A stretch of 64,000 nucleotides of DNA from a phage: the sequence record PX092659.1, one strand, 5' to 3'. Under the pieces are notes generated by a model. The model was not told the DNA's origin. It did no database searches and was given only the letters and a program-made list of their open reading frames with translations. Positions 629-26,300 of the stretch are shown piece by piece; within the stretch, counting starts at the first letter, position 1, and the number at the start of each line of letters is the position of its first letter. The translations under genes were made by a program, and so were the position numbers.

Positions 629-661
629 GCACAGAGAAAACCGAGCCAAAATGACTCGGTT
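629..661 (-). terminator. intrinsic terminator closing minus-strand operon
   Basis: On minus strand: hairpin aaccgag/ctcggtt (9-nt loop) followed by TTTTCTCTG, just downstream of the stop of ORF 669..863. Confidence 0.5.
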
Positions 662-668
662 ATACGGA

Positions 669-863
669 TTAATCATAAAAAAGACCACGAATAGTATTAG
701 CAAATTTAAGTATAATAGCGCGGTTTGAGCTACTTAACTTTTTAATATCGAAAGTGGGATCAGTCAAATATCTCGCCATAAATTTTACTTGTTTAGCTGA
801 AAGTTGACCCTTATTCCACTTTTTAATTTTACCATAACATACCCAATATTCTTTATTCATCAT
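669..863 (-). CDS. hypothetical protein (64 aa)
   Basis: ORF in co-directional minus-strand array, start overlaps upstream gene stop. Confidence 0.4.
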   Translation of the reverse strand: MMNKEYWVCYGKIKKWNKGQLSAKQVKFMARYLTDPTFDIKKLSSSNRAIILKFANTIRGLFYD

Positions 864-1245
864 TTAGTCCCGGAACATAGATCCCAACACGATTTAATTG
901 TTCTTTAGCTTCTTTGAGAATATCTGGAGTGTACTCCCAAATATCATCTTCCACCTGTAAAAGATGTGGCGAACAACCGTCATCAGGCACACGACATATG
1001 GCCAAACCACGTGGATGGAACAAAGAGAAATTTAGGGCAACAATCAAGCCCATAGCAGACAATTCATTCCAATCCAATTCCCATTCCCTGGCATATCCAG
1101 ACAGGAAAATGCCAATGCATGGATCATCTATTTGCTGCTCCGGAAAAGTGAAGGAGGCTTGTCTTACCCCCAACCAACGTTGTAGCAGCTTCTCCGCACG
1201 CTTCACCAAACTAGGATCAATCTGACGCCAGTATACTTGTTCCAT
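853..1245 (-). CDS. hypothetical protein, paralog of 1255..1683
   Basis: 130 aa; shares motifs D(D/E)xPCIG, ELxxMGLxxALN, GWxYxP, PGL with adjacent ORF (tandem paralogs). Confidence 0.5.
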   Translation of the reverse strand: MEQVYWRQIDPSLVKRAEKLLQRWLGVRQASFTFPEQQIDDPCIGIFLSGYAREWELDWNELSAMGLIVALNFSLFHPRGLAICRVPDDGCSPHLLQVEDDIWEYTPDILKEAKEQLNRVGIYVPGLNDE

Positions 1246-1254
1246 TATGCCTCC

Positions 1255-1683
1255 TTAGGCAGTTAAACCCGGAATTTGATAACCAAAACGGCGAAGTTTT
1301 TGGATACCATCATTTACTTCTTCCGGTGAGTAAGACCAACCATAACGTTCATTAACCTGAAAACCAGGAGATTCACTAGTTTTATAGTTAACAACGAGGC
1401 GATGCTTAGCAGGCATAAACAGCTTATAGTTTAACGCAAAAACTAAGCCCATTTCATCTAACTCTTTCCAGCCGACAATTTCTTCAAGACCATCCTCTAC
1501 CTGCACAATTAAACCAATACAGGGAGCCTCATCAATATCATCTTTAAAAGCAAAGGAGATTTCGTTATTCTCACACCATATTTTCAAAGAGTTAATAGCC
1601 TCATTATACAGGCTAGCTGGGAGAGTACGCCAAAAGTTAACCAAAATTGGGTTAGCTTCTTTAGAGAGTACATTATTGAACAT
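1255..1683 (-). CDS. hypothetical protein, paralog of 853..1245
   Basis: 142 aa; same conserved motifs as downstream paralog. Confidence 0.5.
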   Translation of the reverse strand: MFNNVLSKEANPILVNFWRTLPASLYNEAINSLKIWCENNEISFAFKDDIDEAPCIGLIVQVEDGLEEIVGWKELDEMGLVFALNYKLFMPAKHRLVVNYKTSESPGFQVNERYGWSYSPEEVNDGIQKLRRFGYQIPGLTA

Positions 1684-1685
1684 AT

Positions 1686-2192
1686 TTACACCTTAAATTG
1701 TTGTAAGGATTTACACATTTCAAGATCTGGGCTAAATTCTAGCATATAGCTAACAGCTTTTAAATCTTGAAGATTTATCCCAGTCCTACCGTTGACTATA
1801 ACTGTTGGATACTGATACATCATAGCACCCGCATCATCAAGTACACACCAATGTTTGAGCTTATACTTTTCAACGAAACGAAGAACAGAATTACCCCTAG
1901 ATAATCCACCTCCAGTAAAATCCGTTGTACCAAGAAAACGATCGATAAGACCTAATCTGGTCATAATCTGAACGTTCTCCATCTCATTTCTAACAGAGAA
2001 CCAAGATGATACTCCAACAATCATTATCGGAGAAGGACGAATAAAGTCCTGAAAAGCCTTGAGAAGCGGTTTGAAAACCCAGTCACTTCCAAAGAAAATC
2101 TTTTCATCATCAGGTGCATGATGGTGGGAGATGCTCGAATTGAGCACCCCATCAATGTCTAGAAAAATAATCGGAGTATTACTTATTTCCAC
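1686..2192 (-). CDS. HAD-superfamily hydrolase-like protein
   Basis: N-terminal HAD motif I FLDIDGVLN; 168 aa. Confidence 0.55.
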   Translation of the reverse strand: MEISNTPIIFLDIDGVLNSSISHHHAPDDEKIFFGSDWVFKPLLKAFQDFIRPSPIMIVGVSSWFSVRNEMENVQIMTRLGLIDRFLGTTDFTGGGLSRGNSVLRFVEKYKLKHWCVLDDAGAMMYQYPTVIVNGRTGINLQDLKAVSYMLEFSPDLEMCKSLQQFKV

Positions 2193-2361
2193 TTTTGTCC
2201 CTTTCTAAGAACGTATCATACTCAACCGTATCAACATATATGACACCATAGTCATCGGATTTATAGTCCATTTCCCACAGCTCACAGCGATAGCACCAAC
2301 TACCGTCCGCCCATACAAATATATCATCAGGGTGTGCATACACAGATTTAATTATGGACAT
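2179..2361 (-). CDS. small hypothetical protein (60 aa)
   Basis: ORF overlapping neighbours by a few codons in operon. Confidence 0.35.
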   Translation of the reverse strand: MSIIKSVYAHPDDIFVWADGSWCYRCELWEMDYKSDDYGVIYVDTVEYDTFLERDKSGNK

Positions 2362-3175
2362 ATTTGTTCCCCGGCATATAAGGCCTACCCTCTAGATGAG
2401 CTTCTACACGAGCAATAAAATCAGGGTCACTGAAGGCATCTACAGCCCCTTTACCCCAGTAAGGGATACCGCGTTCTTCCAACTGGTACATCTCACTACG
2501 AGTCATGCCTTGATAGCCAGGTTCCGCTGCTAGGGCATTATCATAGTAGTTAACAACCATTAGCTTGGCAGCAGTAAGGTTAAGAATAGGAAATAATTCC
2601 CAGTAGAAGTTAATTACTTGGTTAGAGCAACCAACCACAATGATCATATCTTGACTGGTAATACCATCAAAAACATTGTACATTTCTGTATATGCTGGAG
2701 CATGCTCACCAAAGAAGATGACATTAGGTTTAACCCATTTATAGTCATCTGGGTCAATAGAGTTATACCCAACATCAATAATTCGTTTATTACTACTATT
2801 GTAGCTATCAGCTACAACAACCTCCTTTAAGTATCCATGAATGTGGAGAATATCATTATGGGGAACACCAGCACGCTCAATAAGGTCATCAACGTTAGTA
2901 GTCAAATTTACTACTTGACCTGGGTATTGTTTATACCACTCACCAATACGAAGATGCGCAAGGTTAGGTTCAACAGTTTTTAGCTCTTCACGACGCTTGT
3001 TGTAAAACATATGGGTTTTATGATAAAAATTACCACGAAAGGCATGAATATTACATACTTCTTCTAGATCATAATCATCCCACAATGCTTTACCACTAGC
3101 AGTATCAGTACGAAAGGCTCGTACACCACTTTCAACGCTCAAACCCGCACCGCTAATAATAATTAATCTACGCAT
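2348..3175 (-). CDS. Sir2-like NAD-dependent protein (no zinc-ribbon cysteines)
   Basis: Motifs GAGLSVESGVRAFR, TTNVDDL, HIHG, KPNVIFFGE match the Sir2 catalytic core; no CxxC...CxxC Zn module seen. Confidence 0.7.
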   Translation of the reverse strand: MRRLIIISGAGLSVESGVRAFRTDTASGKALWDDYDLEEVCNIHAFRGNFYHKTHMFYNKRREELKTVEPNLAHLRIGEWYKQYPGQVVNLTTNVDDLIERAGVPHNDILHIHGYLKEVVVADSYNSSNKRIIDVGYNSIDPDDYKWVKPNVIFFGEHAPAYTEMYNVFDGITSQDMIIVVGCSNQVINFYWELFPILNLTAAKLMVVNYYDNALAAEPGYQGMTRSEMYQLEERGIPYWGKGAVDAFSDPDFIARVEAHLEGRPYMPGNKYVHN

Positions 3176-3389
3176 TTTTCACCTGTTCTCTGAAGTTTTG
3201 CCCAATACTGTCTAATAGCTCAGCTAATTCTTTATTGCCTTTCTCCATTAAGGTATTAGCAATAACTTCTAGCATAGTAGCGCAGGATTCAACACCATCC
3301 TTATAGCCAGTTTCCCAGTGCTGCATTAATGCGTTTTCCAAAGCGGCGTTTAAACCCTTATCTGGTAGTATCGGCTTCAAGAATGCCAT
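3168..3389 (-). CDS. hypothetical protein (73 aa)
   Basis: ORF in minus-strand array. Confidence 0.4.
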   Translation of the reverse strand: MAFLKPILPDKGLNAALENALMQHWETGYKDGVESCATMLEVIANTLMEKGNKELAELLDSIGQNFREQVKNA

Positions 3390-3561
3390 AAAGTTTCTCC
3401 TCTAATTCCATAACACGATTTTCATAAGAGGCACGCAACTTTTCAATTGCCAGTGCACGCACCGTAACCTCATTAGAATTAATAGCTAATTGGGCCAGAT
3501 CTTCTGTTTCCATACGTCCGTTGTAAATTAAGCGATATTTAAGATGTTTTACGTTTTTCAT
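3358..3561 (-). CDS. hypothetical protein (67 aa)
   Basis: ORF in minus-strand array. Confidence 0.4.
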   Translation of the reverse strand: MKNVKHLKYRLIYNGRMETEDLAQLAINSNEVTVRALAIEKLRASYENRVMELEEKLYGILEADTTR

Positions 3562-3570
3562 TCTTGTTCC

Positions 3571-3852
3571 TTAGTTCTGTACTGTAAATTCATTCTTATC
3601 ACAGTGAGCATAATAATACCCATACATACGATAAATCTTCACAGCCTTAGTAGACCCCTTCGATTCTTCGTAATCAATCCAGAGCCACTTGTCTTTACCT
3701 ACATAATGTACCCGAAACTTCTTAACTTTCTTATCATTCCATGTTGCAACAACACGACGATAATCAAATCCGCCCAACCAATCCAGAGCTTTACGTTCTT
3801 CACTAGGCTCTCCAAGATGGGAGACATCTACTTTAGGAAGCAACTCGCTCAT
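3571..3852 (-). CDS. hypothetical protein (93 aa)
   Basis: ORF in minus-strand array. Confidence 0.45.
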   Translation of the reverse strand: MSELLPKVDVSHLGEPSEERKALDWLGGFDYRRVVATWNDKKVKKFRVHYVGKDKWLWIDYEESKGSTKAVKIYRMYGYYYAHCDKNEFTVQN

Positions 3853-3951
3853 AACTTTCTCCTCTCAAATTTATAAATCTATTATATATAAATTTTTGGC
3901 TGAAAGCAAATAAAATAAAAGCCAGGTCGACTAGCAACCCGGCTGATTAGC

Positions 3952-5778
3952 TTACTTAAGATTTAAGTGTTTTACTCTACCAAGAACTTCTTTTTGTTTC
4001 CCAGAATTGAAAGGCCTACTGCCAGGAGATCCCAGGTACCCGCAAACCCTACGTGTAACCTCTATTTCTTCAGACCCACAACTCGGACATACAAACCCAC
4101 GTTCAGAGGCAACAGATTCACCCATATACCCACAGTTGAAGCACTCATCAATTGGTATATTAACACCAATATAATGGCTACATTCTAGCCCCTTATCCAC
4201 CACATACTCAAGAGCTTTGTGGAACTTTTTCATTTGAGGTAGTTCCACAAATGATATATTACCACCATTAGCTATTTTGGTAAAATGAGCCTCGTACTCA
4301 AATTTAGTATCTGGAGCTACCTTCTCTCTTACGTCCAAATGGTGACTATTAGTAAGATAGCCTTTGTCTGTTAACCAAGAATACTCTGGGAATCTACGTT
4401 CTAGTAATTTATTAAAACGATTACATAGAGACTCACTAGGAGTAGCATACAAGCTAAACCCAAGATTAGTCTCATTAGCTTTAACTTCGCAACGATTTTT
4501 TAGGTGAGTGAGAACTTCCTCTGTAAATTCAATACAGTCCCTATGGGTCTGTGGTAAACTAAACATTATTTGGCACATCTCATAGACCCCAATATACCCA
4601 AGAGATACAGAGGATCTACCCTCAAAAATAGGCCATACATATTCTTCCCCTTCTAAACGTGCACCAAACCCACCGTGCATATAAAGAATAGGGGCTTGTT
4701 TAGCCTTAACTTTCTTCAGTCTGTTTAAGAAGAAGTCATGCGCTTCAAAAGCCTCATCCACATATTTGTCTAGAATACCCCAGAAATCTTCAAAAACTCC
4801 ATCTGCCTCAGCAGCAACCATAGGTAGATTGATAGACACAACACCTAAATTATTACGTCCTGCAATTTCTCCAGAGGGGATAGCAGATAAAAAACTACGA
4901 CAACCCATAGGGGCTTTAAAATCACCAGTAACAGCTACAACTCTCTCGTAACTTAAATAGTCTGGATACATACGAGTAGCAGAACACTCAAGTGCTAGCT
5001 GTTTTATATCATAGTTAGGATCACCTGGGTTTTTATTTAACCCTTCTTTAACTGAGAATACTAGTTTAGGGAAGATAGGGGTTGACTCAGCAGCACCTAA
5101 ACCTTTAATGCGATTTTGGAGGATGGCTTTCTGAATCATCCTTTCCTCCCACTCCTGCCCTAATCCAAAGCCAAGCGTAACAAAAGGGGTCTGCCCATTA
5201 GAGTTAAATAATGAATTAGTTTCATACTCTAGAGCTTGGAATGCATCATAACACTCTTTTTCAGTAAGCTCAGTAGCATACACAGCAGCTTTTCTTTCAT
5301 CCTTGAGCCAACGTAGCCCACGACCCAGATGTTTATTGTAAGACTTTCTGACATACGGGGCTAGAACCTCGTCGATACGATCAATAGAGGTGCCACCATA
5401 CTGAGCACCAGATACTTGGGCAATAATCTGAGCAGTGATTGCACATGCAGTAGTTATGGATTTAGGAGTTTCAATATTTGCATTACCAATTTTAGTACCA
5501 TTCTTCAGCATGCCACCAAGGTCTACTAAGCAACAGTTAGTGTACCCCTGCGCCCTGTAATCCATATCATGAATGTGTATCTTACCTAGATTATGTGCGT
5601 CTAATAGATGTTTGGGTAATTCCTGCGATACTAAATACTTGTTGATTTCTCCGGCTAATAAGTCTCTTTGAGTATGGAACATCTCACTAGGCTTATTAGC
5701 ATTATTATGTTGTAAGTCCTTGTCAGCAGTTAGAGTGAGCAGGCCTTTGCAATTCTCAATTAATTCATTCTCTGTCAT
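3952..5778 (-). CDS. nrdD: anaerobic ribonucleoside-triphosphate reductase (class III)
   Basis: 608 aa; C-terminal zinc-ribbon cysteines and glycyl-radical motif RRVCGYLG. Confidence 0.85.
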   Translation of the reverse strand: MTENELIENCKGLLTLTADKDLQHNNANKPSEMFHTQRDLLAGEINKYLVSQELPKHLLDAHNLGKIHIHDMDYRAQGYTNCCLVDLGGMLKNGTKIGNANIETPKSITTACAITAQIIAQVSGAQYGGTSIDRIDEVLAPYVRKSYNKHLGRGLRWLKDERKAAVYATELTEKECYDAFQALEYETNSLFNSNGQTPFVTLGFGLGQEWEERMIQKAILQNRIKGLGAAESTPIFPKLVFSVKEGLNKNPGDPNYDIKQLALECSATRMYPDYLSYERVVAVTGDFKAPMGCRSFLSAIPSGEIAGRNNLGVVSINLPMVAAEADGVFEDFWGILDKYVDEAFEAHDFFLNRLKKVKAKQAPILYMHGGFGARLEGEEYVWPIFEGRSSVSLGYIGVYEMCQIMFSLPQTHRDCIEFTEEVLTHLKNRCEVKANETNLGFSLYATPSESLCNRFNKLLERRFPEYSWLTDKGYLTNSHHLDVREKVAPDTKFEYEAHFTKIANGGNISFVELPQMKKFHKALEYVVDKGLECSHYIGVNIPIDECFNCGYMGESVASERGFVCPSCGSEEIEVTRRVCGYLGSPGSRPFNSGKQKEVLGRVKHLNLK

Positions 5779-6628
5779 TGATTATTTCCTCGATAAACTT
5801 TATAGCTACTTTTGGTTCAATATTGAAGAATTCCGTAGCGCCATCAAAATCTTTGTAATGGCAATTCTGTTCTTTAAAGTAGTTATGAGCTAATTTTTCG
5901 ATTCGAACTGCACTACTATATTCGCCAATTTCAAATACTTTAAGTATTTCCAAATCAATAAGGTGGCCACTAGATTTAATATGTAGAAGCCTACGCTCTG
6001 GATTGTTAGACCTACCTATTTTAACTCCATGTGTGGGGCTATGCATAACATATATCTTAGTACTTTCTAAATCTCTATAGCTACAGTAAGGACAACCGTT
6101 CCCTCTTAATACAGATCCTGGAGTAGCTCCCCACCTATGCCCTGCGCCACAGAGAAAGGTAGTCTTAGTATTCGCATTAACATATTCACCTACTATTCTG
6201 ATATTTCTGGCAGTAAGACGATCATTTATAACACTAATACTAAGTTTCTGCTTATTAATAGCACAAGACGGACAGCCACTCCCCCTATTAATTATGCTAT
6301 TAAGCGTAGTAGTCCACTCATGACCACAAATACACCTAAATTTAGTGTTTATATCAACACTATTTTTATATCCCCCCAACAATGTAATACCTCTGTCCTG
6401 TAATACAGAACTAATTTTATCAATATCTAGTTTACGGCTATTAGTAGAGCAAGTAGGACAATTGGTCTTTCCATTCCTAATAGCGTCAAATTTAGCTGTC
6501 CATTGATGGCCATATTCACACTGATACGTATGCCTATACCTAGAATTTTGATACGGCTTATCCACCATAGTAAAACCACGCTCGGCTAGGCATTTATCTA
6601 CTTCTTCTTGGGTTAATTTTTTCGGCAT
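5765..6628 (-). CDS. zinc-finger repeat protein with T5orf172/GIY-YIG-like domain (putative homing endonuclease)
   Basis: Repeated CPxC motifs; C-terminal YVMHSPTHGVKIGRSNNPERR matches the T5orf172 signature; start moved to internal Met MPKK with GGAG-type RBS. Confidence 0.55.
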   Translation of the reverse strand: MPKKLTQEEVDKCLAERGFTMVDKPYQNSRYRHTYQCEYGHQWTAKFDAIRNGKTNCPTCSTNSRKLDIDKISSVLQDRGITLLGGYKNSVDINTKFRCICGHEWTTTLNSIINRGSGCPSCAINKQKLSISVINDRLTARNIRIVGEYVNANTKTTFLCGAGHRWGATPGSVLRGNGCPYCSYRDLESTKIYVMHSPTHGVKIGRSNNPERRLLHIKSSGHLIDLEILKVFEIGEYSSAVRIEKLAHNYFKEQNCHYKDFDGATEFFNIEPKVAIKFIEEIINDRE

Positions 6629-6822
6629 TACTCTTCTCCATAGAATTTTTACATTTATTATACTAAACATTATCCACCATGTCAATTAAAATTTTCTTTC
6701 GCCATCTAATACTGTAATATTTCGCGTATAAATAGTTGAGTATCTAGTATCACACATCCCACGTTAAAAGCAAGCAAATTTTTTATTTAAATGCAATATC
6801 ATAGGCTTATTTAAAATTGTAG

Positions 6823-20009: not shown

Positions 20010-20084
20010 CGGGGTGTAGTCTAAGGGAGAGGCAGGAGTCTTCTAAATTCCTTTATGCAGGTTCGAATCCTGTCACCTCGGCCA
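20010..20084 (+). tRNA. tRNA-Arg (anticodon TCT)
   Basis: Manual cloverleaf: acceptor cggggtg/cacctcg, anticodon loop cttctaa, T-arm gcagg-ttcgaat-cctgt, encoded CCA. Confidence 0.75.
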
Positions 20085-20118
20085 ATTTTATTAACTGTAA
20101 CTAAAACAAAGGAAATAT

Positions 20119-21066
20119 ATGTTTAATACTAAAAATATGAAAGAACTGACTTCTGAGCAGAAAGTAATTCGTACTATTAAACGTTGGGGTATTGGTGCTG
20201 TAGTTGGTTTAGCAGGCTTGATTCTAGCCTTTAATTCATATACTATTGTTTCTGATGGTACGGTTAAAACTCAAACATTTCTGGGTAAAGTAGATCCTAA
20301 CCCAGTATTACCAGGTTTCCATCTTGTAAACCCCTTTGCATCTTTCGACACTTTTAGTACAAAAGATATTGCTGTAAAATTAGATAAACTTCAAGTTCCT
20401 AGTCAGGATAAATTTAAATCCACTGTTGACCTGACTGTTATGTTGCAGTTTGATGGTTCTAAGGCACCGATTAACCGTATTAATGCGGGTACTCAGGATC
20501 AAGCGTTAGACAAATATGTAACTGAAAAATTACTGTCTACTATTCGTGAGTTTGGTAAGTCTGTACCTAAAGCACAAGATTTGTTTGATGCTAAAATTCA
20601 GGCTCAATTGCAAACTGCAATTCAACAGGAAGTTGAAGAGTATGCACGCCCATATGGTTATACAGTTAAGCAGGTATTCCTTCAGGATATTACTTTGCCA
20701 CCGGTAATCATGGAACAGGTACAGAATACCAAAGTTCGTGAAGAACAGGTTAATGCTGCTAAAGCTGAATTAGCTCGTGTTGAACAGGAAGCACAGCAAA
20801 AAGTTAAACAAGCAGAAGCAGATCGCGAAGCTCGTAATAACCAAGCTATTGCCAATGAGCGTGACGCAGATGCCAAACTGTACGCAGCTAAGAAAGAAGC
20901 TGAAGCTAACGCCGCGTTGCAACGTACCATTACTCCTGAGATGATTCGCTGGAAGCAACTGGAAGTTGAAATGATTCGTGCTCAGAAATACCAAGGTGGT
21001 GTACCGCAGACTGTGGTTGGCACTGGCTATGATGGCCAAATGATTATGGATATGCGTAATAAATAA
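20119..21066 (+). CDS. SPFH/band-7 (stomatin/HflC-like) membrane protein
   Basis: N-terminal TM helix, SPFH-like core, C-terminal coiled coil rich in A/E/K/Q (AKAELARVEQEAQQKVKQAEADREA). Confidence 0.65.
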   Translation: MFNTKNMKELTSEQKVIRTIKRWGIGAVVGLAGLILAFNSYTIVSDGTVKTQTFLGKVDPNPVLPGFHLVNPFASFDTFSTKDIAVKLDKLQVPSQDKFKSTVDLTVMLQFDGSKAPINRINAGTQDQALDKYVTEKLLSTIREFGKSVPKAQDLFDAKIQAQLQTAIQQEVEEYARPYGYTVKQVFLQDITLPPVIMEQVQNTKVREEQVNAAKAELARVEQEAQQKVKQAEADREARNNQAIANERDADAKLYAAKKEAEANAALQRTITPEMIRWKQLEVEMIRAQKYQGGVPQTVVGTGYDGQMIMDMRNK

Positions 21067-21090
21067 TACCCGCATGTAACATCTGAAATA

Positions 21091-21126
21091 AGCCCTGCGT
21101 TTCCTGGAGAGCGCAGGGCTTTTCTG
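21091..21126 (+). terminator. intrinsic terminator after SPFH gene
   Basis: 9-bp stem agccctgcg/cgcagggct followed by TTTTCTG. Confidence 0.7.
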
Positions 21127-21141
21127 TATTTAAGATAAAAG

Positions 21142-21180
21142 AAAAGCCCCTAAGTCTTTCGACTAGGGGCTTTATTGTTT
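21142..21180. terminator. bidirectional terminator-like hairpin
   Basis: GC-rich stem gcccctaagtc/gactaggggc flanked by A-run upstream and T-run downstream, between convergent genes. Confidence 0.55.
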
Positions 21181-21390
21181 GGTTCTTTAGAACCATATAC
21201 TCTTGTTACAGCAACCACCCATACGGGAGGCCAATCTTGACTGAAAATCTACTCTAGGGGGCAGGATAAGAGTAGGCTTAAAGGCAAACGGATTGAACGC
21301 CGGTATTTGTGTAAACATTGCTGGAGAGCAACAACGTGCTACAGGCATTGGGCAGCACGAAATAGATTTTCTGCAACACATAATTTCTCC

Positions 21391-21807
21391 TTAGGAGTTA
21401 TTACCACCATTTTGAGCTTTTGCAACTTGGCTTTGGCAGAAGCTATTAAACTTACCCATAAGTGATACAAGCTGTTTCCCATCCTCTGTCTTTGCGAAGT
21501 CTTCGAAAAGGGCTAGTACTGCCTGTCCTTCCGCAGAAACCTGCGGTTGTTGGGTTTGTTGCTGAACTTGCTGCTGAGGCACCTGTTGCTGCATTTGTTG
21601 AGGCATTTGCGACTGCCCGCTCATTTGCTGCATCATTTGCATAGGACTCACACTTCCAGGGTTTTGCTGGAGTTGTTGCTGCATCTGTTGCGCTTCTGCT
21701 AAACGCTGTTGCAATTGTTGTAAGTAGGGGTTATCCAGACCCGGAATGGGCTGCTGGGAGCCCATACTTTGATTAAGTCCGTTATTTACAAAACCATATT
21801 TACTCAT
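21391..21807 (-). CDS. Q-rich low-complexity protein (138 aa)
   Basis: Long Gln/Met-rich stretches; convergent with SPFH gene. Confidence 0.5.
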   Translation of the reverse strand: MSKYGFVNNGLNQSMGSQQPIPGLDNPYLQQLQQRLAEAQQMQQQLQQNPGSVSPMQMMQQMSGQSQMPQQMQQQVPQQQVQQQTQQPQVSAEGQAVLALFEDFAKTEDGKQLVSLMGKFNSFCQSQVAKAQNGGNNS

Positions 21808-21828
21808 AATGGGCTCCTCCCCTTAATA

Positions 21829-22821
21829 TTAAGCCGGCAGTTTAGCCTGCAGACCAGCCAGAGTCTGAGTGATAGCACCAAGACTTACAGCGATTTGATT
21901 AATTACCTGACCGTTAGCACCGTTACCCGCAGCGATTGCTTCACGTAGGCGACATGCATCTAACTCATCCTGAATACGAGCAGTAGTTACACCAGCGATA
22001 GCAGTCTGAAGTTCACAGCAACATTCAGCGATCTGACGTTCCAGAGAGTTCTGGTTAGCACACATCTGAGCCTGAACAGCGGCAAACTGGTTATTAGTTT
22101 GTAAAGTCTGCTGGAAAGCGATCTGTGCAGAATCAAACTTATCTTGTGCACGAGCTATCTGATTAGCTGCGAAAGATTGATCAATCTGGCGAGAAAGATC
22201 GAACTGACCCTGAATAACGTTGCGAGTTTCCTGACAGATCTGATTAGACAGATTAGCACCTGTACCATAGATCGTAGTTAGTACAGACTGAGTATCACGG
22301 CTCTGGTTTTGGGATGTCTGGCTAAACCCATTGTTAACTGCGCTTAAAACAGCTCCAGTACCCTGGTTAGCTTCTGTACGAGTAGTGTTAATAGCTGCTA
22401 GAATACTAGCGGTATCTTGGTTCTGAAGTACTGCATCAACTGCGGTACCATCACCAACTACACCACGTCCACCGAATCCACCGAAACCACCGAATCCGCC
22501 TGTTAATAGAGCACCGATTAGGATAGCTCCGAATAGTCCCATACCTTCACCACCGAAAGCACCTGCGTTTGCTGGGTAACCACCCAGTAGGCCAGGGAAG
22601 CCACTAGTAAATACGTTTACTGGTTCTTGCATTTTATGTTTTCCATATTTATGACAATGTTCATCGTCATCTTCTTCATCATCGTGTTCACGATGTTTTT
22701 CTTCGTAGGCTCTGACCTTCTCCCACTTTTTCTTATCTGATTCCTCGTGACGGTGCAGTTCTGCTGCAACGCTAGCGACGGTCTCAGGACTCTTAGCTAC
22801 TTCTTCTGTCATTTTTGACAC
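21829..22821 (-). CDS. membrane protein with His/acidic N-terminus and glycine-zipper TM segment (330 aa)
   Basis: GAILIGALLTGGFGGFGGFGG segment then Q/N/A/T-rich domain with CCC motif; RBS AGGAGG upstream on minus strand. Confidence 0.55.
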   Translation of the reverse strand: MSKMTEEVAKSPETVASVAAELHRHEESDKKKWEKVRAYEEKHREHDDEEDDDEHCHKYGKHKMQEPVNVFTSGFPGLLGGYPANAGAFGGEGMGLFGAILIGALLTGGFGGFGGFGGRGVVGDGTAVDAVLQNQDTASILAAINTTRTEANQGTGAVLSAVNNGFSQTSQNQSRDTQSVLTTIYGTGANLSNQICQETRNVIQGQFDLSRQIDQSFAANQIARAQDKFDSAQIAFQQTLQTNNQFAAVQAQMCANQNSLERQIAECCCELQTAIAGVTTARIQDELDACRLREAIAAGNGANGQVINQIAVSLGAITQTLAGLQAKLPA

Positions 22822-23018
22822 CTCCTAGTATATAGAAAATGTGTGTCTCTTTGATCACTCATCCATAACATATACTTTACACTACCCCAGCGAAAATGTC
22901 AAGGGGTCTTTAAAAATTGCCCCTGAATTTTTAGTGGGGTCACAAATTTTGGTCCTCACCATTTATCTGCTATCCTTAAGTGCCCTATGATTTTCCTCTA
23001 AAAAGTTAAAAAATTTGA

Positions 23019-23047
23019 TTGCTTGAATGCTAAATTCTCTGTATAAT
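23019..23047 (+). promoter_or_regulatory. T5-type promoter
   Basis: TTGCTT-17-TATAAT. Confidence 0.65.
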
Positions 23048-23077
23048 ATATCTATAAATTTGAAAGAGGAACCAAAT

Positions 23078-23596
23078 ATGAATGTTGATGAGCTAACACA
23101 GCACCTCTTATCTAGAGGATTTGATACAGATAAATATCATTGCTGGTTAAGTCCGGAAGGATGGCTAACAGTCCCGTTGTATGACTTCTCTGGGATGTTG
23201 AGGGGCTATCAAACTTATAATCCTTCTGCTCCAAAAGGTCATGGTAAGTGCCCCTTTGAAGCTAAATACTTTACTTATTCTACTACCCAGTGTGTATGGG
23301 GACTAGAAACTCTCAATGGAGATGAAAAAGTAGTATTGATTGCTGAATCTGTATTTAAGGCAGTTGCGTTACATAATGCTGGTTATCCAGCCCTAGCAAT
23401 GTTGGGTTCTTCTCCAGGAAAAGCGTTATTAAAGCAACTGAAATTACTACCTTTTAAATTGGTAGCTGTCGGAGATAATGATCCTGCGGGTGAAAAATTT
23501 GCTAGAAAATTAAACGGCTTTGTTTCTCCCGTAGATGTGGATGAGATGTCTACCGAAAACTTGAAAAATTTTCTTGCTATGAAGCTAAATTTCTAA
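23078..23596 (+). CDS. small Toprim-domain-like protein
   Basis: Start MNVDELTQ after GAGG RBS; VVLIAESVFKA...LVAVGDNDPAGEKF resembles Toprim E...DxD. Confidence 0.5.
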   Translation: MNVDELTQHLLSRGFDTDKYHCWLSPEGWLTVPLYDFSGMLRGYQTYNPSAPKGHGKCPFEAKYFTYSTTQCVWGLETLNGDEKVVLIAESVFKAVALHNAGYPALAMLGSSPGKALLKQLKLLPFKLVAVGDNDPAGEKFARKLNGFVSPVDVDEMSTENLKNFLAMKLNF

Positions 23597-23602
23597 TATA
23601 AT
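23574..23602 (+). promoter_or_regulatory. T5-type promoter embedded in the 3' end of the upstream CDS
   Basis: TTGCTA-17-TATAAT directly upstream of tRNA-Ser/tRNA-Met. Confidence 0.6.
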
Positions 23603-23617
23603 ATATCTTATAAATTC

Positions 23618-23706
23618 GGAAGAATAGCATAACGGTATTGCAGCAGATTGCTAATCTGTCGGCTTGAAATATAGCCTTGTGGGTTCGATTCCCACTTCTT
23701 CCGCCA
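23618..23706 (+). tRNA. tRNA-Ser (anticodon GCT), class II
   Basis: Acceptor ggaagaa/ttcttcc, anticodon loop ttgctaa, long variable arm, T-arm gtggg-ttcgatt-cccac, CCA. Confidence 0.75.
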
Positions 23707-23712
23707 AACATA

Positions 23713-23787
23713 GGGTCGGTAGCTTAAAGTTAAAGCGGTGGCCTCATAAGCTAACGAGTAGGAGTTAGATTCTCCTCCGACCCACCA
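23713..23787 (+). tRNA. tRNA with CAT anticodon (Met, fMet or Ile-lysidine)
   Basis: Acceptor gggtcgg/ccgaccc, anticodon loop ctcataa, T-loop ttagatt, CCA. Confidence 0.65.
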
Positions 23788-23801
23788 ATTAGGTACTGCG
23801 T

Positions 23802-24203
23802 ATGGAAAAGGTTGAATTTGAGTACTTTGGAGTTATTTTAATTGTACACTTAAATGGTACAATAGAAACTAAAGATAGAATAATAACACAACGAAATCAA
23901 TATGGCGAGTATACTAGAACTATAAAAGGAAAGGTACTGTCTCCACGTTGCAATGGTAAATCTGGGTATTTTCAGGTGAAGATTTGCAATAAGGGATTAG
24001 GTAAAAATGAGTATGTGCACAGACTCGTATGGATGGCTTTCAACGGTGAAATACCGGAAGGCTATGAAATAGAGCACAAAGATGATGATAAGTCTAATAA
24101 TGCTTTACCTAACCTAGAATTATTCACAAGAAAGCAGAATATGGACAAAGTCTTAAATAAGATGACTAGAGATTCTCTAGGTCGTTTTGAAAAACTTAAC
24201 TAG
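23802..24203 (+). CDS. HNH homing endonuclease
   Basis: VHRLVWMAFNGEIPEGYEIEHKDDDKSNN...NLELFTRKQN (HNH_3-type). Confidence 0.7.
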   Translation: MEKVEFEYFGVILIVHLNGTIETKDRIITQRNQYGEYTRTIKGKVLSPRCNGKSGYFQVKICNKGLGKNEYVHRLVWMAFNGEIPEGYEIEHKDDDKSNNALPNLELFTRKQNMDKVLNKMTRDSLGRFEKLN

Positions 24204-24211
24204 GAGACTAT

Positions 24212-24397
24212 ATGTCTAAGTTTCAAGAACTCAAGCAAGAGCTAGAAGAATGTGCCTGCCCTGAGTGTAGAGGAATTGGTGAAAGTTCTGATGCAGAAGC
24301 AGGAGATACTTTTTGCAATATCTGGGTTTGCCCAACTTGCAATGGTACAGGTATTAATCCTAACTGCGGTATTTCCCTAGATATTGAGCGAGGATAA
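24212..24397 (+). CDS. small zinc-ribbon protein (61 aa)
   Basis: CxxC...CxxC (CPEC...CPTC). Confidence 0.45.
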   Translation: MSKFQELKQELEECACPECRGIGESSDAEAGDTFCNIWVCPTCNGTGINPNCGISLDIERG

Positions 24398-24498
24398 TAC
24401 CTGTGAAACTAAAAGATTATTATATTGGTTGGTTTGTGGGACTAGTAGTAGTATTTTCACTAGGCTATAATATGTATCAACTAATAAACTGATTACAT

Positions 24499-24575
24499 GG
24501 GGGTGTAATCGAATTGGCATAGGTACTGGACTTAAAATTCAGGTTTTGTGGGTTCGAATCCCACCACCCCTACCA
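24499..24575 (+). tRNA. tRNA with TAA anticodon (Leu by anticodon) but class I architecture
   Basis: Acceptor gggggtg/cacccct, anticodon arm ctgga-cttaaaa-ttcag, 5-nt variable loop, T-arm gtggg-ttcgaat-cccac, CCA. Confidence 0.55.
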
Positions 24576-24590
24576 AATTAAGGAAATAAG

Positions 24591-24758
24591 ATGTATAGAC
24601 ATCCACCTCCGCCAACACGTCGTTCCAGAGAAGTTATCCTCATGGAGTTGACTAAAAACTTCAAGGCAACTCTTGAAGATAGAGATTTAGGCACGGATGA
24701 AGACATTGATTTTATTTGTAGACTATTAAAGATGAAACTGGAGAAACAACATGGCTAA
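24591..24758 (+). CDS. small hypothetical protein (55 aa)
   Basis: ATG after AAGGAAA; below ORF-track cutoff. Confidence 0.3.
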   Translation: MYRHPPPPTRRSREVILMELTKNFKATLEDRDLGTDEDIDFICRLLKMKLEKQHG

Positions 24759-24957
24759 TCCTGAAATTACCGCACAACGTTTCATGCTTAAAGGCATGAT
24801 TGCTGAAGCAGGTATGACTCAAGAGGTTGCAGACTTTCATAAGCAATTTCTTGATATTATAACTCTAGCTAAAGAGACTGGAGAAAAAGAACACGGAGCA
24901 GCAATTATGGCTATATCTCTTATTAGTCTAGACTTGGCTGAAGAATCTGGAGTTTAG
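24751..24957 (+). CDS. hypothetical protein (68 aa)
   Basis: ORF in plus-strand array. Confidence 0.45.
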   Translation: MANPEITAQRFMLKGMIAEAGMTQEVADFHKQFLDIITLAKETGEKEHGAAIMAISLISLDLAEESGV

Positions 24958-24977
24958 CTCCTCCAAACAGAATTTTT

Positions 24978-25007
24978 AAAAATGTACTTGCCTTTTGCTT
25001 TAAATTT
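24978..25007 (+). promoter_or_regulatory. T5-type promoter
   Basis: TTGCCT-18-TATAAT. Confidence 0.55.
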
Positions 25008-25047
25008 CTGATATAATAGTTATATAAATTGATGAAGGAGTTAACGA

Positions 25048-25323
25048 ATGCAAAATCGTGTTATAGCAGCTGGTATTGAAAGTGCAATCTGTAAATCCTG
25101 GGAAGGCTGGGAAGGTGAGATTGAATGGCTTTATTTCTATGATGTAGAACTTCTGCCGGAAGTTAAAGCTAAATGTGTTGAAGCTGGCATGGCTCCAGAT
25201 GCAAAAGCTGATATTGATATTTCAATGTCTGAACTTAAAGGTCGTGTAATTACTGTTAGTGATGAGGGCGAAGAAGTCTTCGAACTTCCATTCTCCTTAA
25301 TTGTCACTCCTAAGTTCGACTAA
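25048..25323 (+). CDS. hypothetical acidic protein (91 aa)
   Basis: ORF with GGAG RBS. Confidence 0.5.
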   Translation: MQNRVIAAGIESAICKSWEGWEGEIEWLYFYDVELLPEVKAKCVEAGMAPDAKADIDISMSELKGRVITVSDEGEEVFELPFSLIVTPKFD

Positions 25324-25359
25324 CTAATACAGCACTGAGCAAGTTCTTTAAAATTTGAC

Positions 25360-25389
25360 TTGCTCAGTGCTATAAAACTTGATATAATA
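25360..25389 (+). promoter_or_regulatory. T5-type promoter overlapping a terminator-like inverted repeat
   Basis: TTGCTC-18-TATAAT; 13-bp inverted repeat agcactgagcaag/cttgctcagtgct (25331-25370) spans the -35. Confidence 0.55.
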
Positions 25390-25520
25390 GTTATCTAATT
25401 TGGAAAGTTCTTTTTAAGGTAGTTCCTACTTTAGTAGAGTAAATTTTTGGCAGATGGCCCCACCATTTTACCGATAACTCCTAGTCAGTGCGGCAACACT
25501 GGCTACCTTAAAGAGAATTT

Positions 25521-25608
25521 GGGCGTTTATTCCGTAAGTGGTAGCGGAGGGGATTGTAAATCCCTGGTCATTGCGACTCGAGTGGTTCGACTCCATTAAC
25601 GCCCACCA
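25521..25608 (+). tRNA. tRNA-Tyr (anticodon GTA), class II
   Basis: Acceptor gggcgtt/aacgccc, anticodon arm gggga-ttgtaaa-tccct, long variable arm, CCA. Confidence 0.75.
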
Positions 25609-25615
25609 AATTTAA

Positions 25616-25692
25616 GTCCTGTTAGACAAACGGGTAAAGTCACTACCCTTTCAAGGTAGGATTTGCGGGTTCGATCCCCGCACAGGACGCCA
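25616..25692 (+). tRNA. tRNA-Glu (anticodon TTC)
   Basis: Acceptor gtcctgt/acaggac, anticodon arm ctacc-ctttcaa-ggtag, T-arm gcggg-ttcgatc-cccgc, CCA. Confidence 0.75.
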
Positions 25693-25701
25693 ATTTCTGC
25701 A

Positions 25702-25777
25702 TTCCTAGAGTGTTACTGGACAGCATGTCGGTCTCCAAAACCGTACGGTCTAGGTTCGAGTCCTAGTAGGTTTGCCA
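25702..25777 (+). ncRNA. tRNA-like element (anticodon arm compatible with CCA/Trp; acceptor stem defective)
   Basis: T-arm ctagg-ttcgagt-cctag plus encoded GCCA end, but only 3-5 of 7 acceptor pairs. Confidence 0.3.
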
Positions 25778-25783
25778 AAATTT

Positions 25784-25858
25784 GCACCTTTAGCTGAGAT
25801 GGATTAGCGCTTGCCTGAAGAGCTTGAGAGGTTCGTTCGATACGAACAGGGTGCACCA
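25784..25858 (+). tRNA. tRNA with GAA anticodon (Phe?), weak anticodon stem
   Basis: Acceptor gcacctt/agggtgc, T-arm gttcg-ttcgata-cgaac, CCA; anticodon stem has two U-U mismatches. Confidence 0.45.
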
Positions 25859-25875
25859 AATTGAAGGAGCTGCTG

Positions 25876-26148
25876 ATGCATCCTGAAAACTTCTTTATTT
25901 ACTGCGCGGATAAGTCGCTGAAACGTAGAATTAACAAAGTCTATCATTATCGTGCTAGTCAACAGCCTTATGTATATGCTTTTGACGGTGATCACATTCC
26001 ACTAGAACAATTATCTTGTGATTACATGATATTGAAGAACTTTGACGAGACGAAGATCTCAAGCGTTCATAATCGACAGAATCCCTTAACGTGGAAATAT
26101 AAGAAGAAAAAGAAAGGCATCAAATTCTTAAAAAATGTAGTTGCTTAG
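25876..26148 (+). CDS. hypothetical protein (about 90 aa)
   Basis: Listed ORF 25861..26148 trimmed to first ATG; ends inside next promoter. Confidence 0.4.
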   Translation: MHPENFFIYCADKSLKRRINKVYHYRASQQPYVYAFDGDHIPLEQLSCDYMILKNFDETKISSVHNRQNPLTWKYKKKKKGIKFLKNVVA

Positions 26149-26169
26149 TTTCTAAAAGTTCTGTATAAT
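26141..26169 (+). promoter_or_regulatory. T5-type promoter
   Basis: TTGCTT-17-TATAAT. Confidence 0.65.
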
Positions 26170-26217
26170 AATTACATAAATTGAACTGGAGAAGCAACAT
26201 GACAGAACAAGATAAAC

Positions 26218-26293: not shown

Positions 26294-26300
26294 AATTTTA

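What the first reader, a model, noticed from the sequence alone, without database searches (positions are those of the whole stretch)
669..3175. Operon pairing a zinc-less Sir2-like protein with a HAD hydrolase and two paralogous unknown proteins, next to nrdD
The Sir2-like ORF has the catalytic motifs (GAGxS, TxNxD, HG, FGE) but I see no zinc-ribbon cysteines, a trait of some NAD-consuming rather than deacetylating Sir2 proteins. It is co-oriented with a HAD-type phosphatase and a tandem paralog pair sharing PCIG/MGL/PGL motifs. One hypothesis is a phage NAD or ADP-ribose processing module, which would be relevant to NAD-depleting host defences. This is inference, not established.
Basis: inference. 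Interest (0 to 1): 0.6.

Follow-up and report, generated by a model that had tools for sequence, protein, structure and literature searches.

The report
T5-phage sirtuin–phosphatase early operon
This is the well-conserved early operon of a T5-like phage, holding a cysteine-free sirtuin, a small phosphatase and several tiny unknown proteins; it has been described in silico before but never tested, and most likely helps the phage repair cut RNA or manage NAD during infection.

Summary
Window 639-3944 (minus strand) is a nine-gene unit bracketed by two terminator-like hairpins. It equals T5.100-T5.107 of phage T5 and matches 449 phage records.

- **Sirtuin (2348-3175).** It is a canonical-family sirtuin closest to E. 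coli CobB and SIRT5, with every NAD-binding and catalytic motif. It has no zinc-binding cysteines, and this holds for all 120 homologue clusters checked. The beta-sheet module that normally holds zinc is still predicted, so it is not a defence-type NADase sirtuin.
- **HAD (1686-2192).** It is a catalytically intact HAD_SAK_2 phosphatase.
- **Paralogs (853-1245, 1255-1683).** They are 31% identical and each holds two DUF7415 repeats with no known fold. The "PCIG" cysteine is not conserved.

Both key points are already published: zinc loss in phage Sir2/CobB (Skliros 2016) and the sirtuin plus "Swiss-army-knife" HAD neighbourhood in T5-like phage SP15, predicted to act in RNA repair (Iyer 2022). 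No experiment was found.

My neighbourhood survey links this sirtuin clade repeatedly to RNA ligase, kinase and phosphoesterase genes, and also to NAD-rebuilding genes.

Best guess, at about 40%, is NAD-dependent RNA-end healing. Protein deacylation and NAD/ADP-ribose metabolite processing remain live rivals. Novelty is low and interest moderate.

The parts
3920..3944 (-). terminator-like hairpin after nrdD; upstream boundary of the operon
   Evidence: 10-bp stem, 6 GC pairs, T-run. T5 annotates a terminator and a promoter at the same place.
3571..3852 (-). 93-aa ORF of unknown function (phrog_7953); first gene of the unit
   Evidence: conserved in T5-like phages
3358..3561 (-). 67-aa ORF of unknown function (phrog_5236)
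3168..3389 (-). 73-aa acidic ORF (phrog_5827); overlaps the Sir2 start by 8 nt
   Evidence: Its homologue in phage PSa2 is mislabelled 'NMN transporter'.
2348..3175 (-). Cysteine-free CobB-like (class III-like) sirtuin, equivalent to T5.102
   Evidence: PF02146 at E 7e-25. Best PDB match by sequence and by fold is E. coli CobB 1s5p. Invariant residues: GAGxS, F21 R22, Y58..R61, N94 D96, H113 G114, FFxE, G182xS184, N209. The HG..FGE segment holds 0 Cys. Model pLDDT 89.6.
2179..2361 (-). 60-aa acidic ORF (phrog_5116); overlaps the Sir2 end and the HAD start; candidate Sir2 partner
   Evidence: It lies directly after Sir2 in both Sir2 alleles of T5-likes, in Sugarlandvirus and in two contigs that lack HAD and DUF7415 (L085, L087). 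Its divergence tracks that of Sir2. pI 4.3.
1686..2192 (-). HAD_SAK_2 phosphatase, equivalent to T5.105
   Evidence: PF18143 at E 4e-19. HAD motifs are intact: I, DIDGV 13-17; II, SS 62-63; III, R99; IV, DD 119-120. No solved relative by sequence.
1255..1683 (-). DUF7415 x2 protein, paralog B, equivalent to T5.106
   Evidence: PF24187 at E 3e-35 with two repeats. 31% identical to paralog A.
853..1245 (-). DUF7415 x2 protein, paralog A, equivalent to T5.107
669..863 (-). 64-aa basic ORF (phrog_29527); last gene; absent from T5 itself
   Evidence: pI 10
639..661 (-). terminator-like hairpin; downstream boundary of the operon
   Evidence: 10-bp stem

Best explanation
The locus is the early operon of a T5-like phage (Demerecviridae), equal to T5.100-T5.107.

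**The sirtuin.** It belongs to a phage-specific branch of CobB/SIRT5-like sirtuins. This branch has lost the zinc ligands but kept the fold, the NAD pocket, the catalytic His and the Tyr..Arg pair that recognises an anionic group.

**Most likely role (inferred, not shown).** The operon heals damaged RNA ends using NAD, as proposed by Iyer et al. 2022.
1. The sirtuin uses NAD to ADP-ribosylate a 2'-phosphate left on RNA cut by host, metal-independent anticodon or other RNases.
2. The ADP-ribose 2''-OH, activated through H113, then attacks the phosphate. The phosphate leaves as ADP-ribose 1'',2''-cyclic phosphate.
3. This is the chemistry of Tpt1/KptA, carried out on a sirtuin scaffold. It closely parallels sirtuin deacylation.

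**The HAD phosphatase.** It either removes terminal 2'/3'-phosphates from the RNA, like the HAD domain of T4 Pnkp, or dephosphorylates the ADP-ribose-phosphate by-product so that it can be recycled to NAD.

**Ligation.** T5-like phages carry no RNA ligase in this window, so ligation would have to be done by a host enzyme.

**The small proteins.** The 60-aa protein is probably a partner or regulator of the sirtuin. The two acidic DUF7415 proteins are probably not enzymes. Their role is open, and their link to the module is weaker.
For: **Shown here**
- Family, motifs and fold of Sir2 and of HAD.
- One tightly packed transcription unit.

**Context of the sirtuin clade**
- Orthologues at 57-65% identity sit directly after calcineurin-type phosphoesterase, Rnl1 RNA ligase, cREC and an AAA_33 kinase in Vequintavirus and Mydovirus.
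- That arrangement occurs in 11 of 59 IMG/VR loci. A 607-kb phage contig also has Rnl1 next to the sirtuin, making 12 loci with Rnl1.
- In jumbo phage BF the sirtuin sits between a 2H phosphoesterase and a Nudix-cREC fusion.

**Context of HAD and DUF7415**
- In Aeh1-like Aeromonas phages a HAD_SAK_2 gene and a single-domain DUF7415 gene flank T4-type rnlA within about 2.5 kb.
- So each of the three T5 components is found beside an RNA ligase in some other lineage.

**Published and established support**
- A published prediction covers this very neighbourhood, in phage SP15 (PMC9503650). SP15 carries the same operon (P0124).
- The two-step mechanisms of Tpt1 and of sirtuins are parallel (established knowledge).
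- The invariant Y58/R61 pair fits an anionic phosphoryl or carboxyl group.
Against: - No RNA ligase, polynucleotide kinase, cREC or 2H gene lies anywhere in the 64-kb window.
- The whole sirtuin clade is acidic, with pI 4.6-6.05. This is unlike typical RNA-binding enzymes.
- The acyl-lysine pocket residues of CobB are conserved or conservatively replaced: A76/C41, Y92/Y58, R95/R61, I131/V95. This fits ordinary lysine deacylation equally well.
- In ABPH49 the nearest HAD relative is in a NARP1 operon with no sirtuin or ligase nearby.
- Klebsiella T5-likes keep the sirtuin and the DUF7415 pair but have no HAD.
- Ten sirtuin loci show none of these neighbours.
- The Aeh1-like arrangement is one lineage, and it lies in the plastic T4 td-denA-rnlA region.
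- E. coli already has KptA (my own knowledge).
- No experiment exists.
Confidence: 0.4

Rival explanations
1. Protein deacylase. The sirtuin is a zinc-independent CobB/SIRT5-like lysine deacylase (desuccinylase, demalonylase or deacetylase). It resets acylation of host or phage proteins early in infection, for example by activating acetyl-CoA synthetase as proposed for Vibrio phage phiSt2. The HAD and the small proteins are unrelated neighbours.
For: - The closest sequence and fold relatives are CobB, Sir2-Af1 and SIRT5.
- H113 and the class III Y58..R61 motif are invariant, and the pocket positions are conserved.
- The small beta-module that helps bind peptide substrates is retained in the model.
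- Published proposal: PMC5107563.
Against: - All NCBIfam CobB equivalogs score far below their cut-offs, for example 90 against 320 bits.
- The clade is phage-specific, and only 24-26% identical to CobB in the structure-based alignment.
- This reading does not explain the repeated placement beside RNA ligase, kinase, phosphoesterase and cREC genes in several lineages, or beside the HAD.
- The host already has CobB.
Confidence: 0.25
2. NAD/ADP-ribose metabolite module. The sirtuin and the HAD act on small molecules. The sirtuin cleaves or transfers from NAD or an NAD-derived signal. The HAD dephosphorylates a phosphorylated ADP-ribose such as ADPR-1''-phosphate, as the Macro-domain Adpp does. 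Together they protect the phage NAD pool or destroy immune signals.
For: - HAD_SAK_2, Adps and Namat form one operon in Acinetobacter phage ABPH49. That HAD is about 35-38% identical to the T5-like HADs, the only relatives outside its own lineage found in the phage collection.
- That layout mirrors NARP1-AP, where the extra gene is an ADPR-1P phosphatase (bioRxiv 10.64898/2026.01.28.702374).
- NARP1, NamPT or NMNAT genes lie within 8 kb of the sirtuin in 11 of 59 loci. In L110 and in phage BF they are directly upstream on the same strand.
- T5-like phages are known to invest in NAD rebuilding through NARP3 (PMC13464706).
Against: - The HAD-NARP1 link is a single small lineage of three records.
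- In the Mydovirus-type loci NARP1 is on the opposite strand, about 5 kb away, while the ligase module is contiguous with the sirtuin.
- No NARP genes were found in this window.
- The sirtuin is not of the NADase (SIR2_2) type.
- An NAD-consuming enzyme would work against NAD conservation unless it were tightly controlled.
Confidence: 0.2
3. No functional module. The nine genes are simply co-transcribed early accessory genes with unrelated jobs. The DUF7415 and 60-aa proteins might be host-takeover or anti-defence binders. The sirtuin-HAD adjacency is lineage inheritance within T5-like phages.
For: - Single-domain DUF7415 is typical of P2-like prophage replication operons, next to gpA-like, Dam-like and DksA-like genes. 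It also occurs fused to MazG-like and dTMP-kinase domains. This is a context unrelated to sirtuins.
- Sugarlandvirus lacks the HAD.
- Other sirtuin lineages lack both HAD and DUF7415.
- Genes in this region are mosaic, with two alleles each of nrdD and Sir2.
- All the small proteins are acidic, as many phage inhibitor proteins are.
Against: - Sirtuin-HAD adjacency persists across both sirtuin alleles (52% identity), while the HAD stays about 90% identical.
- It also persists in a distant T5-like contig where the HAD is 43% identical (L041/L084).
- HAD and DUF7415 re-associate in unrelated Aeh1-like phages.
- The genes overlap in a way that suggests translational coupling.
Confidence: 0.15

Closest known systems
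E. coli CobB and other class III sirtuins (SIRT5, Sir2-Af1)
   Same: - Best sequence match (1s5p, E 2e-17) and best fold match (TM 0.85 normalised to the target).
- The same NAD motifs, the catalytic His and the Y..R anion-binding pair.
- A small domain with a beta-sheet module.
   Different: - No zinc-binding cysteines anywhere in the clade.
- Only 24-26% identity in the structure-based alignment.
- Fails every CobB equivalog cut-off.
- Found only in phages.
- An extra C-terminal stretch of about 60 aa.
- Substrate unknown.
Sirtuin plus 'Swiss-army-knife' HAD neighbourhood of Escherichia phage SP15 (type 3 of Iyer, Burroughs, Anantharaman and Aravind 2022, PMC9503650)
   Same: It is the same operon. 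SP15 is a T5-like phage whose DUF7415 protein is 93% identical to the one here. The sirtuin clade, the HAD family and the predicted RNA-repair role are the same.
   Different: The passages of that paper read here do not mention the DUF7415 pair, the 60-aa sirtuin-linked ORF, the HAD-NARP1 operon of ABPH49 or the Aeh1-like HAD-Rnl1-DUF7415 arrangement. It is a prediction only.
Sir2/CobB of Vibrio phages phiSt2, phiGrn1 and KVP40 (Skliros et al. 2016, PMC5107563)
   Same: The same phage sirtuin group; Vibrio phage hits are 35-41% identical. Loss of the zinc ligand in the finger domain has already been reported, and T5 is listed as a carrier.
   Different: Those phages pair the gene with NamPT/NMNAT rather than with HAD and DUF7415. 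The proposed role there was deacetylation of host Acs.
Tpt1/KptA RNA 2'-phosphotransferase
   Same: The proposed reaction is the same: NAD-dependent removal of an RNA 2'-phosphate as ADP-ribose 1'',2''-cyclic phosphate. The position in repair neighbourhoods, next to ligase, kinase and cyclic phosphodiesterase genes, is also the same.
   Different: The fold is unrelated (ART fold against a sirtuin Rossmann fold). There is no homology, and the activity has not been tested for any sirtuin.
T4 Pnkp plus Rnl1 tRNA repair
   Same: A HAD-type phosphatase associated with RNA healing. In Aeh1-like phages the HAD_SAK_2 gene lies in the td-denA-rnlA region.
   Different: T5-like phages have no kinase domain and no RNA ligase in the window. 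The HAD here is a stand-alone 168-aa protein with no solved relative by sequence.
NARP1-AP (Adps, Adpp, Namat), the phage NAD reconstitution pathway with an ADPR-1''-phosphate phosphatase
   Same: ABPH49 has a three-gene layout with a phosphatase gene joined to Adps and Namat. That phosphatase is about 35-38% identical to the T5-like HADs.
   Different: Adpp is a Macro-domain protein, not a HAD. No Adps or Namat gene is in this window. The HAD substrate is untested.

Membership tests
Canonical sirtuins (Pfam SIR2, PF02146) | Profile match above the curated cut-off, with the Rossmann NAD motifs (GAGxS, TxNxD, GxS, N) | tested here: met
   88.4 bits against a cut-off of 24. Motifs are invariant in 44 and in 120 homologues.
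Canonical sirtuins (Pfam SIR2, PF02146) | Catalytic histidine (HG motif) | tested here: met
   H113 G114 are invariant and align with the HG motif of CobB.
Canonical sirtuins (Pfam SIR2, PF02146) | Cys4 zinc site in the small domain | tested here: not met
   0 Cys in the HG..FGE segment here and 0-2 in all 120 homologue clusters, against 4 in CobB.
Canonical sirtuins (Pfam SIR2, PF02146) | Small-domain beta-sheet module present | tested here: met
   AlphaFold model only: strands 114-122, 131-134 and 147-152, with mean pLDDT of 89-97 over residues 111-150. The alignment to CobB spans nearly the whole protein.
Canonical sirtuins (Pfam SIR2, PF02146) | NAD-dependent lysine deacylase activity | not testable with these tools
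   Needs an enzyme assay.
CobB equivalogs (NCBIfam NF040867, NF001755 and others) | Score at or above the curated equivalog cut-off | tested here: not met
   Best scores are 99.7 against 243 bits and 90.1 against 320 bits.
Class III sirtuins (SIRT5/CobB type) | Tyr-x-x-Arg pair that binds an anionic acyl group | tested here: met
   Y58 and R61 are invariant and align with FYNARR of CobB (Y92, R95). The residue numbering of CobB is from my own knowledge, and is consistent with the mutant names.
Defence-type SIR2_2 sirtuins (PF13289; ThsA, DSR, Sir2-HerA, KomC) | Match to SIR2_2 or defence profiles, with a fold lacking the zinc module altogether | tested here: not met
   No PF13289 hit at E up to 1. 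No PADLOC hit. The nearest folds are CobB, SIRT5 and Af1. The module is retained.
SirTM (macrodomain-linked ADP-ribosylating sirtuins) | Adjacent Macro-domain partner gene | tested here: not met
   No Macro domain in any of the nine operon ORFs.
HAD phosphatases, HAD_SAK_2 (PF18143) | Profile match above the cut-off | tested here: met
   69.8 bits against 27.5, covering the full length of the profile.
HAD phosphatases, HAD_SAK_2 (PF18143) | Catalytic motifs I (DxD), II (S/T), III (K/R) and IV (DD) | tested here: met
   D13-I-D15, S62 S63, R99 and D119 D120, conserved in three or four distant homologues.
HAD phosphatases, HAD_SAK_2 (PF18143) | Substrate is an RNA terminal phosphate | not testable with these tools
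   The family name rests on a prediction. The context evidence is mixed.
DUF7415 (PF24187) | Profile match above the cut-off | tested here: met
   120.8 and 107.6 bits against 27, with two repeats in each protein.
Tpt1/KptA RNA 2'-phosphotransferases | Homology to the KptA ART-type fold | tested here: not met
   The protein has a sirtuin fold. Any likeness is functional analogy only.
Phage tRNA repair (T4 Pnkp-Rnl1 type) | RNA ligase and 5'-kinase encoded with the healing enzyme | tested here: not met
   No Rnl1, AAA_33 kinase, cREC or 2H match in the 64-kb window. They are present beside sirtuin orthologues in other phages.
NARP1 / NARP1-AP NAD reconstitution | Adps and Namat genes in the locus | tested here: not met
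   None in the window. They are present next to a HAD homologue in ABPH49.

The most novel reading that the evidence does not exclude
A sirtuin acts on nucleic acid rather than protein. This phage clade would be a zinc-free analogue of Tpt1 that removes RNA 2'-phosphates with NAD. The HAD_SAK_2 enzyme would dephosphorylate the resulting ADP-ribose phosphate, which would also make it a HAD-type counterpart of the Macro-domain Adpp seen in NARP1 operons. RNA repair and NAD recycling would then be coupled in one early module, and the 60-aa acidic protein would gate the sirtuin.
Probability: 0.25. Interest if true: 0.8.

Novelty: already known. Interest (0 to 1): 0.35.

Why it matters
The sirtuin clade occurs in about 1000 of 50,697 phage records, including T5-, rV5-, phAPEC8-, KVP40-like and jumbo phages, and none of them has been studied biochemically.

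- If it is an RNA 2'-phosphotransferase, it would be the first sirtuin shown to act on RNA. It would also reveal a second, convergent route for NAD-dependent RNA repair used against tRNA-cutting bacterial defences.
- If instead it or the HAD works on ADP-ribose derivatives, it would add a layer to the NAD arms race alongside NARP1, NARP2, NARP3 and Adpp.

Either result would matter for choosing or engineering T5-like therapeutic phages. As a genome finding, however, it repeats what is already in the T5 annotation and in two comparative papers.

Tried and rejected
- **Defence-type NADase sirtuin:** rejected. There is no SIR2_2 or PADLOC match, and the fold is nearest CobB.
- **Recent capture of host cobB:** rejected. 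Identity is only 24-26% in the structure-based alignment, and the clade is phage-only.
- **'PCIG' cysteine as an active site of the paralogs:** rejected. The Cys is often Ser.
- **A PnuC next to Sir2 in phage PSa2:** rejected. It is a 64-aa mislabelled ORF.
- **NARP3 (NadR/PnuC) or NARP1 in this window:** not found among ORFs of 150 aa or more, or by seed searches.
- **Close relatives of the ABPH49 HAD in IMG/VR:** none.
- **Experimental papers on T5 Sir2, on DUF7415 or on sirtuin-Tpt1 activity:** none in the library.
- **Burroughs and Aravind 2016,** the origin of the HAD_SAK name, is not held.
- **Solved structure for the HAD by sequence:** none.


Full report
**What the window is**

The region 600-3900 matches 449 phage records at up to 95% identity. 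Nearly all are Salmonella and Escherichia T5-like phages (Demerecviridae, Markadamsvirinae). The window also carries nrdD, phoH, nrdAB, frd, td and 24 tRNA genes. It therefore covers the early region of a T5-like genome. In T5 itself the same genes are T5.100-T5.107, with an annotated promoter after the nrdD terminator and a terminator after T5.107.

**Check of the observation**

On the minus strand the ORFs are as follows.

| Coordinates | Length | Identity |
|---|---|---|
| 3571-3852 | 93 aa | unknown |
| 3358-3561 | 67 aa | unknown |
| 3168-3389 | 73 aa | unknown |
| 2348-3175 | 275 aa | Sir2 |
| 2179-2361 | 60 aa | unknown |
| 1686-2192 | 168 aa | HAD |
| 1255-1683 | 142 aa | DUF7415 x2, paralog B |
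| 853-1245 | 130 aa | DUF7415 x2, paralog A |
| 669-863 | 64 aa | unknown |

- Neighbouring genes overlap by 8-32 nt or are 2-9 nt apart. Terminator-like hairpins lie at 3944-3920 and 661-639. This is one transcription unit.
- Pfam gives SIR2 PF02146 (E 7e-25), HAD_SAK_2 PF18143 (E 4e-19), and DUF7415 PF24187 twice in each paralog.
- The paralogs are 31% identical, E 2e-19.
- The sirtuin has only two cysteines, C41 and C183. The 47 residues between HG and FGE have none, where CobB has four. Among 120 homologue clusters of at least 50% identity the segment has 0-2 Cys. The loss is clade-wide.
Two refinements apply: the 'PCIG' Cys is not conserved, and extra small ORFs sit within the unit.

**What kind of sirtuin**

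- The best solved relatives by sequence are E. coli CobB (1s5p, E 2e-17), Sir2-Af1/Af2 and SIRT5.
- An AlphaFold model built on 44 sequences has pLDDT 89.6. It is closest to the same proteins by Foldseek, with TM 0.85 normalised to CobB.
- The model keeps a confident three-stranded sheet at residues 114-152, where the zinc ribbon normally lies. The module has survived without its ligands.
- Invariant residues include GAGxS, F21-R22, N94/D96, H113-G114, FFxE, GxS and N209. They also include Y58..R61, which aligns with the Y92/R95 pair of CobB that recognises anionic acyl groups.
- The protein fails all CobB equivalog cut-offs, has no defence-family match, and all close homologues come from phages or phage-sized contigs.
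- It is therefore a phage-specific, cysteine-free offshoot of class III-like sirtuins. It is not a member of the SIR2_2 NADase group, whose lack of the entire zinc module is what is linked to NADase activity (PMC12700824).

**Prior knowledge**

- Skliros et al. 2016 had already reported that the Sir2/CobB proteins of Vibrio phages phiSt2, phiGrn1 and KVP40 lack the zinc ligand. They listed T5 among the carriers and proposed deacetylation of host Acs (PMC5107563).
- Iyer et al. 2022 defined a distinct phage sirtuin clade with three neighbourhood types. [quoted passage not shown] They proposed a KptA-like removal of RNA 2'-phosphates (PMC9503650). SP15 has this same operon.
- I found no experimental work.

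**Independent test of the context**

I fetched annotated loci and 59 IMG/VR loci around sirtuin homologues. The results for the 59 loci are listed here.

- 28 have sirtuin followed by HAD and DUF7415 (27 with two DUF7415 genes, one with a single copy). All are T5-like.
- 3 have the sirtuin with one or two DUF7415 genes but no HAD. These are Sugarlandvirus-like.
- 11 have a calcineurin-type phosphoesterase, Rnl1 RNA ligase, usually cREC, and an AAA_33 kinase leading into the sirtuin. A 607-kb contig also has Rnl1 beside the sirtuin, giving 12 loci with Rnl1.
- 11 have NAD-synthesis genes within 8 kb. In 8 of these, Adps and Namat (NARP1) lie on the opposite strand about 5 kb from the ligase module. 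In L110 and in jumbo phage BF they are directly upstream on the same strand.
- 10 have none of these.

In phage BF the sirtuin lies between a 2H (Acb1-like) phosphoesterase and a Nudix-cREC fusion. The RNA-end-processing link is thus reproduced in several gene orders. The NAD-supply link is real but looser.

**The HAD**

- All four HAD motifs are intact.
- Outside T5-likes, homologues occur in T4-like Aeromonas and Morganella phages and in Acinetobacter phage ABPH49.
- In Aeh1-like phages the gene lies about 0.6 kb upstream of denA-rnlA, and a single-domain DUF7415 gene follows rnlA directly. This matches the old T5 annotation notes pointing to Aeh1 ORF303c and ORF299c.
- In ABPH49 the HAD overlaps the start of an Adps-Namat operon, with no sirtuin or ligase nearby. 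This copies the layout of NARP1-AP, whose extra gene is a Macro-domain ADPR-1''-phosphate phosphatase (bioRxiv 10.64898/2026.01.28.702374).
- That lineage comprises only three records.
- The HAD may therefore act on RNA ends or on ADP-ribose phosphates. The second option would also fit downstream of a Tpt1-like reaction.

**DUF7415 and the 60-aa ORF**

- A full HMM search shows that the second repeat is a widespread module of about 55 aa, with consensus IDWNELSxxGLIxRINxEILHPLGLA...DGxWEY.
- That module occurs alone in many small phage proteins. It also occurs fused to MazG-like dATP/dGTP pyrophosphohydrolase and to thymidylate kinase.
- In IMG/VR it is typical of P2-like prophage early operons, next to gpA-like, Dam-like and DksA-like genes.
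- Both T5 paralogs are acidic, pI 4.6-4.7.
- Its tie to the sirtuin is therefore weaker than the tie of the HAD.
- The 60-aa ORF is the tightest companion of the sirtuin. It follows Sir2 directly in both Sir2 alleles of T5-likes, in Sugarlandvirus, and in two contigs without HAD or DUF7415. Its divergence tracks that of Sir2.

**Weighing the explanations**

*For NAD-dependent RNA-end healing:*
- The multi-lineage context.
- The published prediction.
- The chemical parallel between sirtuin deacylation and the Tpt1 reaction.
- The anion-binding Y..R pair.

*Against it in T5:*
- No ligase or kinase in the window.
- An acidic enzyme family.
- A pocket that would equally suit succinyl-lysine.
- Loss of the HAD in Klebsiella T5-likes.
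- The ABPH49 operon.

I put RNA-end healing at about 0.40, protein deacylation at 0.25, NAD/ADP-ribose metabolite processing at 0.20, and 'no common function' at 0.15.

**Verdict**

The locus and its two notable traits are already in the literature, so novelty is low ('already known'). Interest is moderate (0.35). A sirtuin clade found in about 1000 of 50,697 phage records still has no demonstrated activity, and clear, cheap experiments could decide between three concrete mechanisms.

Noticed in passing
window 1686-2192 (HAD), residues 77-168: PHROG phrog_18062 is labelled 'Sir2 (NAD-dependent deacetylase)', but it matches the C-terminal half of the HAD protein at E 3.6e-56. This explains why many T5-like records list two 'Sir2' genes. 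It is an annotation error that keeps being propagated.
   Followed up: partly
window 2179-2361 (-): The 60-aa acidic ORF overlaps both the Sir2 end and the HAD start. It always follows Sir2, including in lineages without HAD or DUF7415, and it co-varies with the Sir2 allele. It may be a sirtuin partner or regulator, and it is not mentioned in the papers read.
   Followed up: partly
L009 / L194 (Acinetobacter phage ABPH49, MH533020.1 26615-29836): A HAD_SAK_2 gene overlaps the start of an Adps-Namat (NARP1) operon. This resembles NARP1-AP but with a HAD instead of the Macro-domain Adpp. Only three records carry this HAD type.
   Followed up: partly
L012, L042, L043, L047 (Aeh1-like Aeromonas phages): HAD_SAK_2, one small ORF, denA, T4-type rnlA and a single-domain DUF7415 gene lie within about 2.5 kb.
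   Followed up: partly
window 5765-6685 (-): A 306-aa ORF with treble-clef zinc fingers (DUF4379/CapR) and a T5orf172/MUG113 domain overlaps the nrdD start. It looks like a homing-endonuclease-type insertion. It is absent at this place in phage S131.
   Followed up: partly
window 3952-5778 (nrdD) and 2348-3175 (Sir2), compared with L017, L092 and L096: Both nrdD (57-60% against 99.7% identity) and Sir2 (about 92% against 52%) exist as two divergent alleles among otherwise syntenic T5-like phages. phoH and the HAD stay at 90-98% identity. This points to mosaic exchange of single genes.
   Followed up: partly
phage records OR847503.1 and OR847565.1; proteins P0139 and P0146: Short records named 'Listeria phage LM 4-11-1' and partial 'Enterococcus faecalis' proteins are 92-97% identical to this T5-like operon. 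They are probably contamination or mislabelling.
   Followed up: no
L193 (Escherichia phage PSa2, OL770310.1 58683-59691): A 64-aa homologue of window ORF 3168-3389 is annotated as 'nicotinamide mononucleotide transporter'. In the same record Sir2 is split into two CDSs by a frameshift.
   Followed up: yes
window 21391-21807 (-) and 21829-22821 (-): Two low-complexity ORFs lie on the opposite strand at the start of the tRNA region. One is Gln-rich (138 aa). The other is Gly/Gln/Ala-rich (330 aa). They sit next to an SPFH/Band-7 gene at 20119-21066.
   Followed up: no
window 20010-32067 (+): There are 24 tRNA genes, including three tRNA-Met, two tRNA-Lys and two tRNA-Gln. This matters if the phage faces tRNA-cleaving defences.
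   Followed up: no
proteins P0202 and P0298 (DUF7415 homologues): By eye, some single-domain DUF7415 proteins are fused to an ASCH/DUF3850-like segment. Others are fused to a MazG-like pyrophosphohydrolase or to thymidylate kinase.
   Followed up: partly
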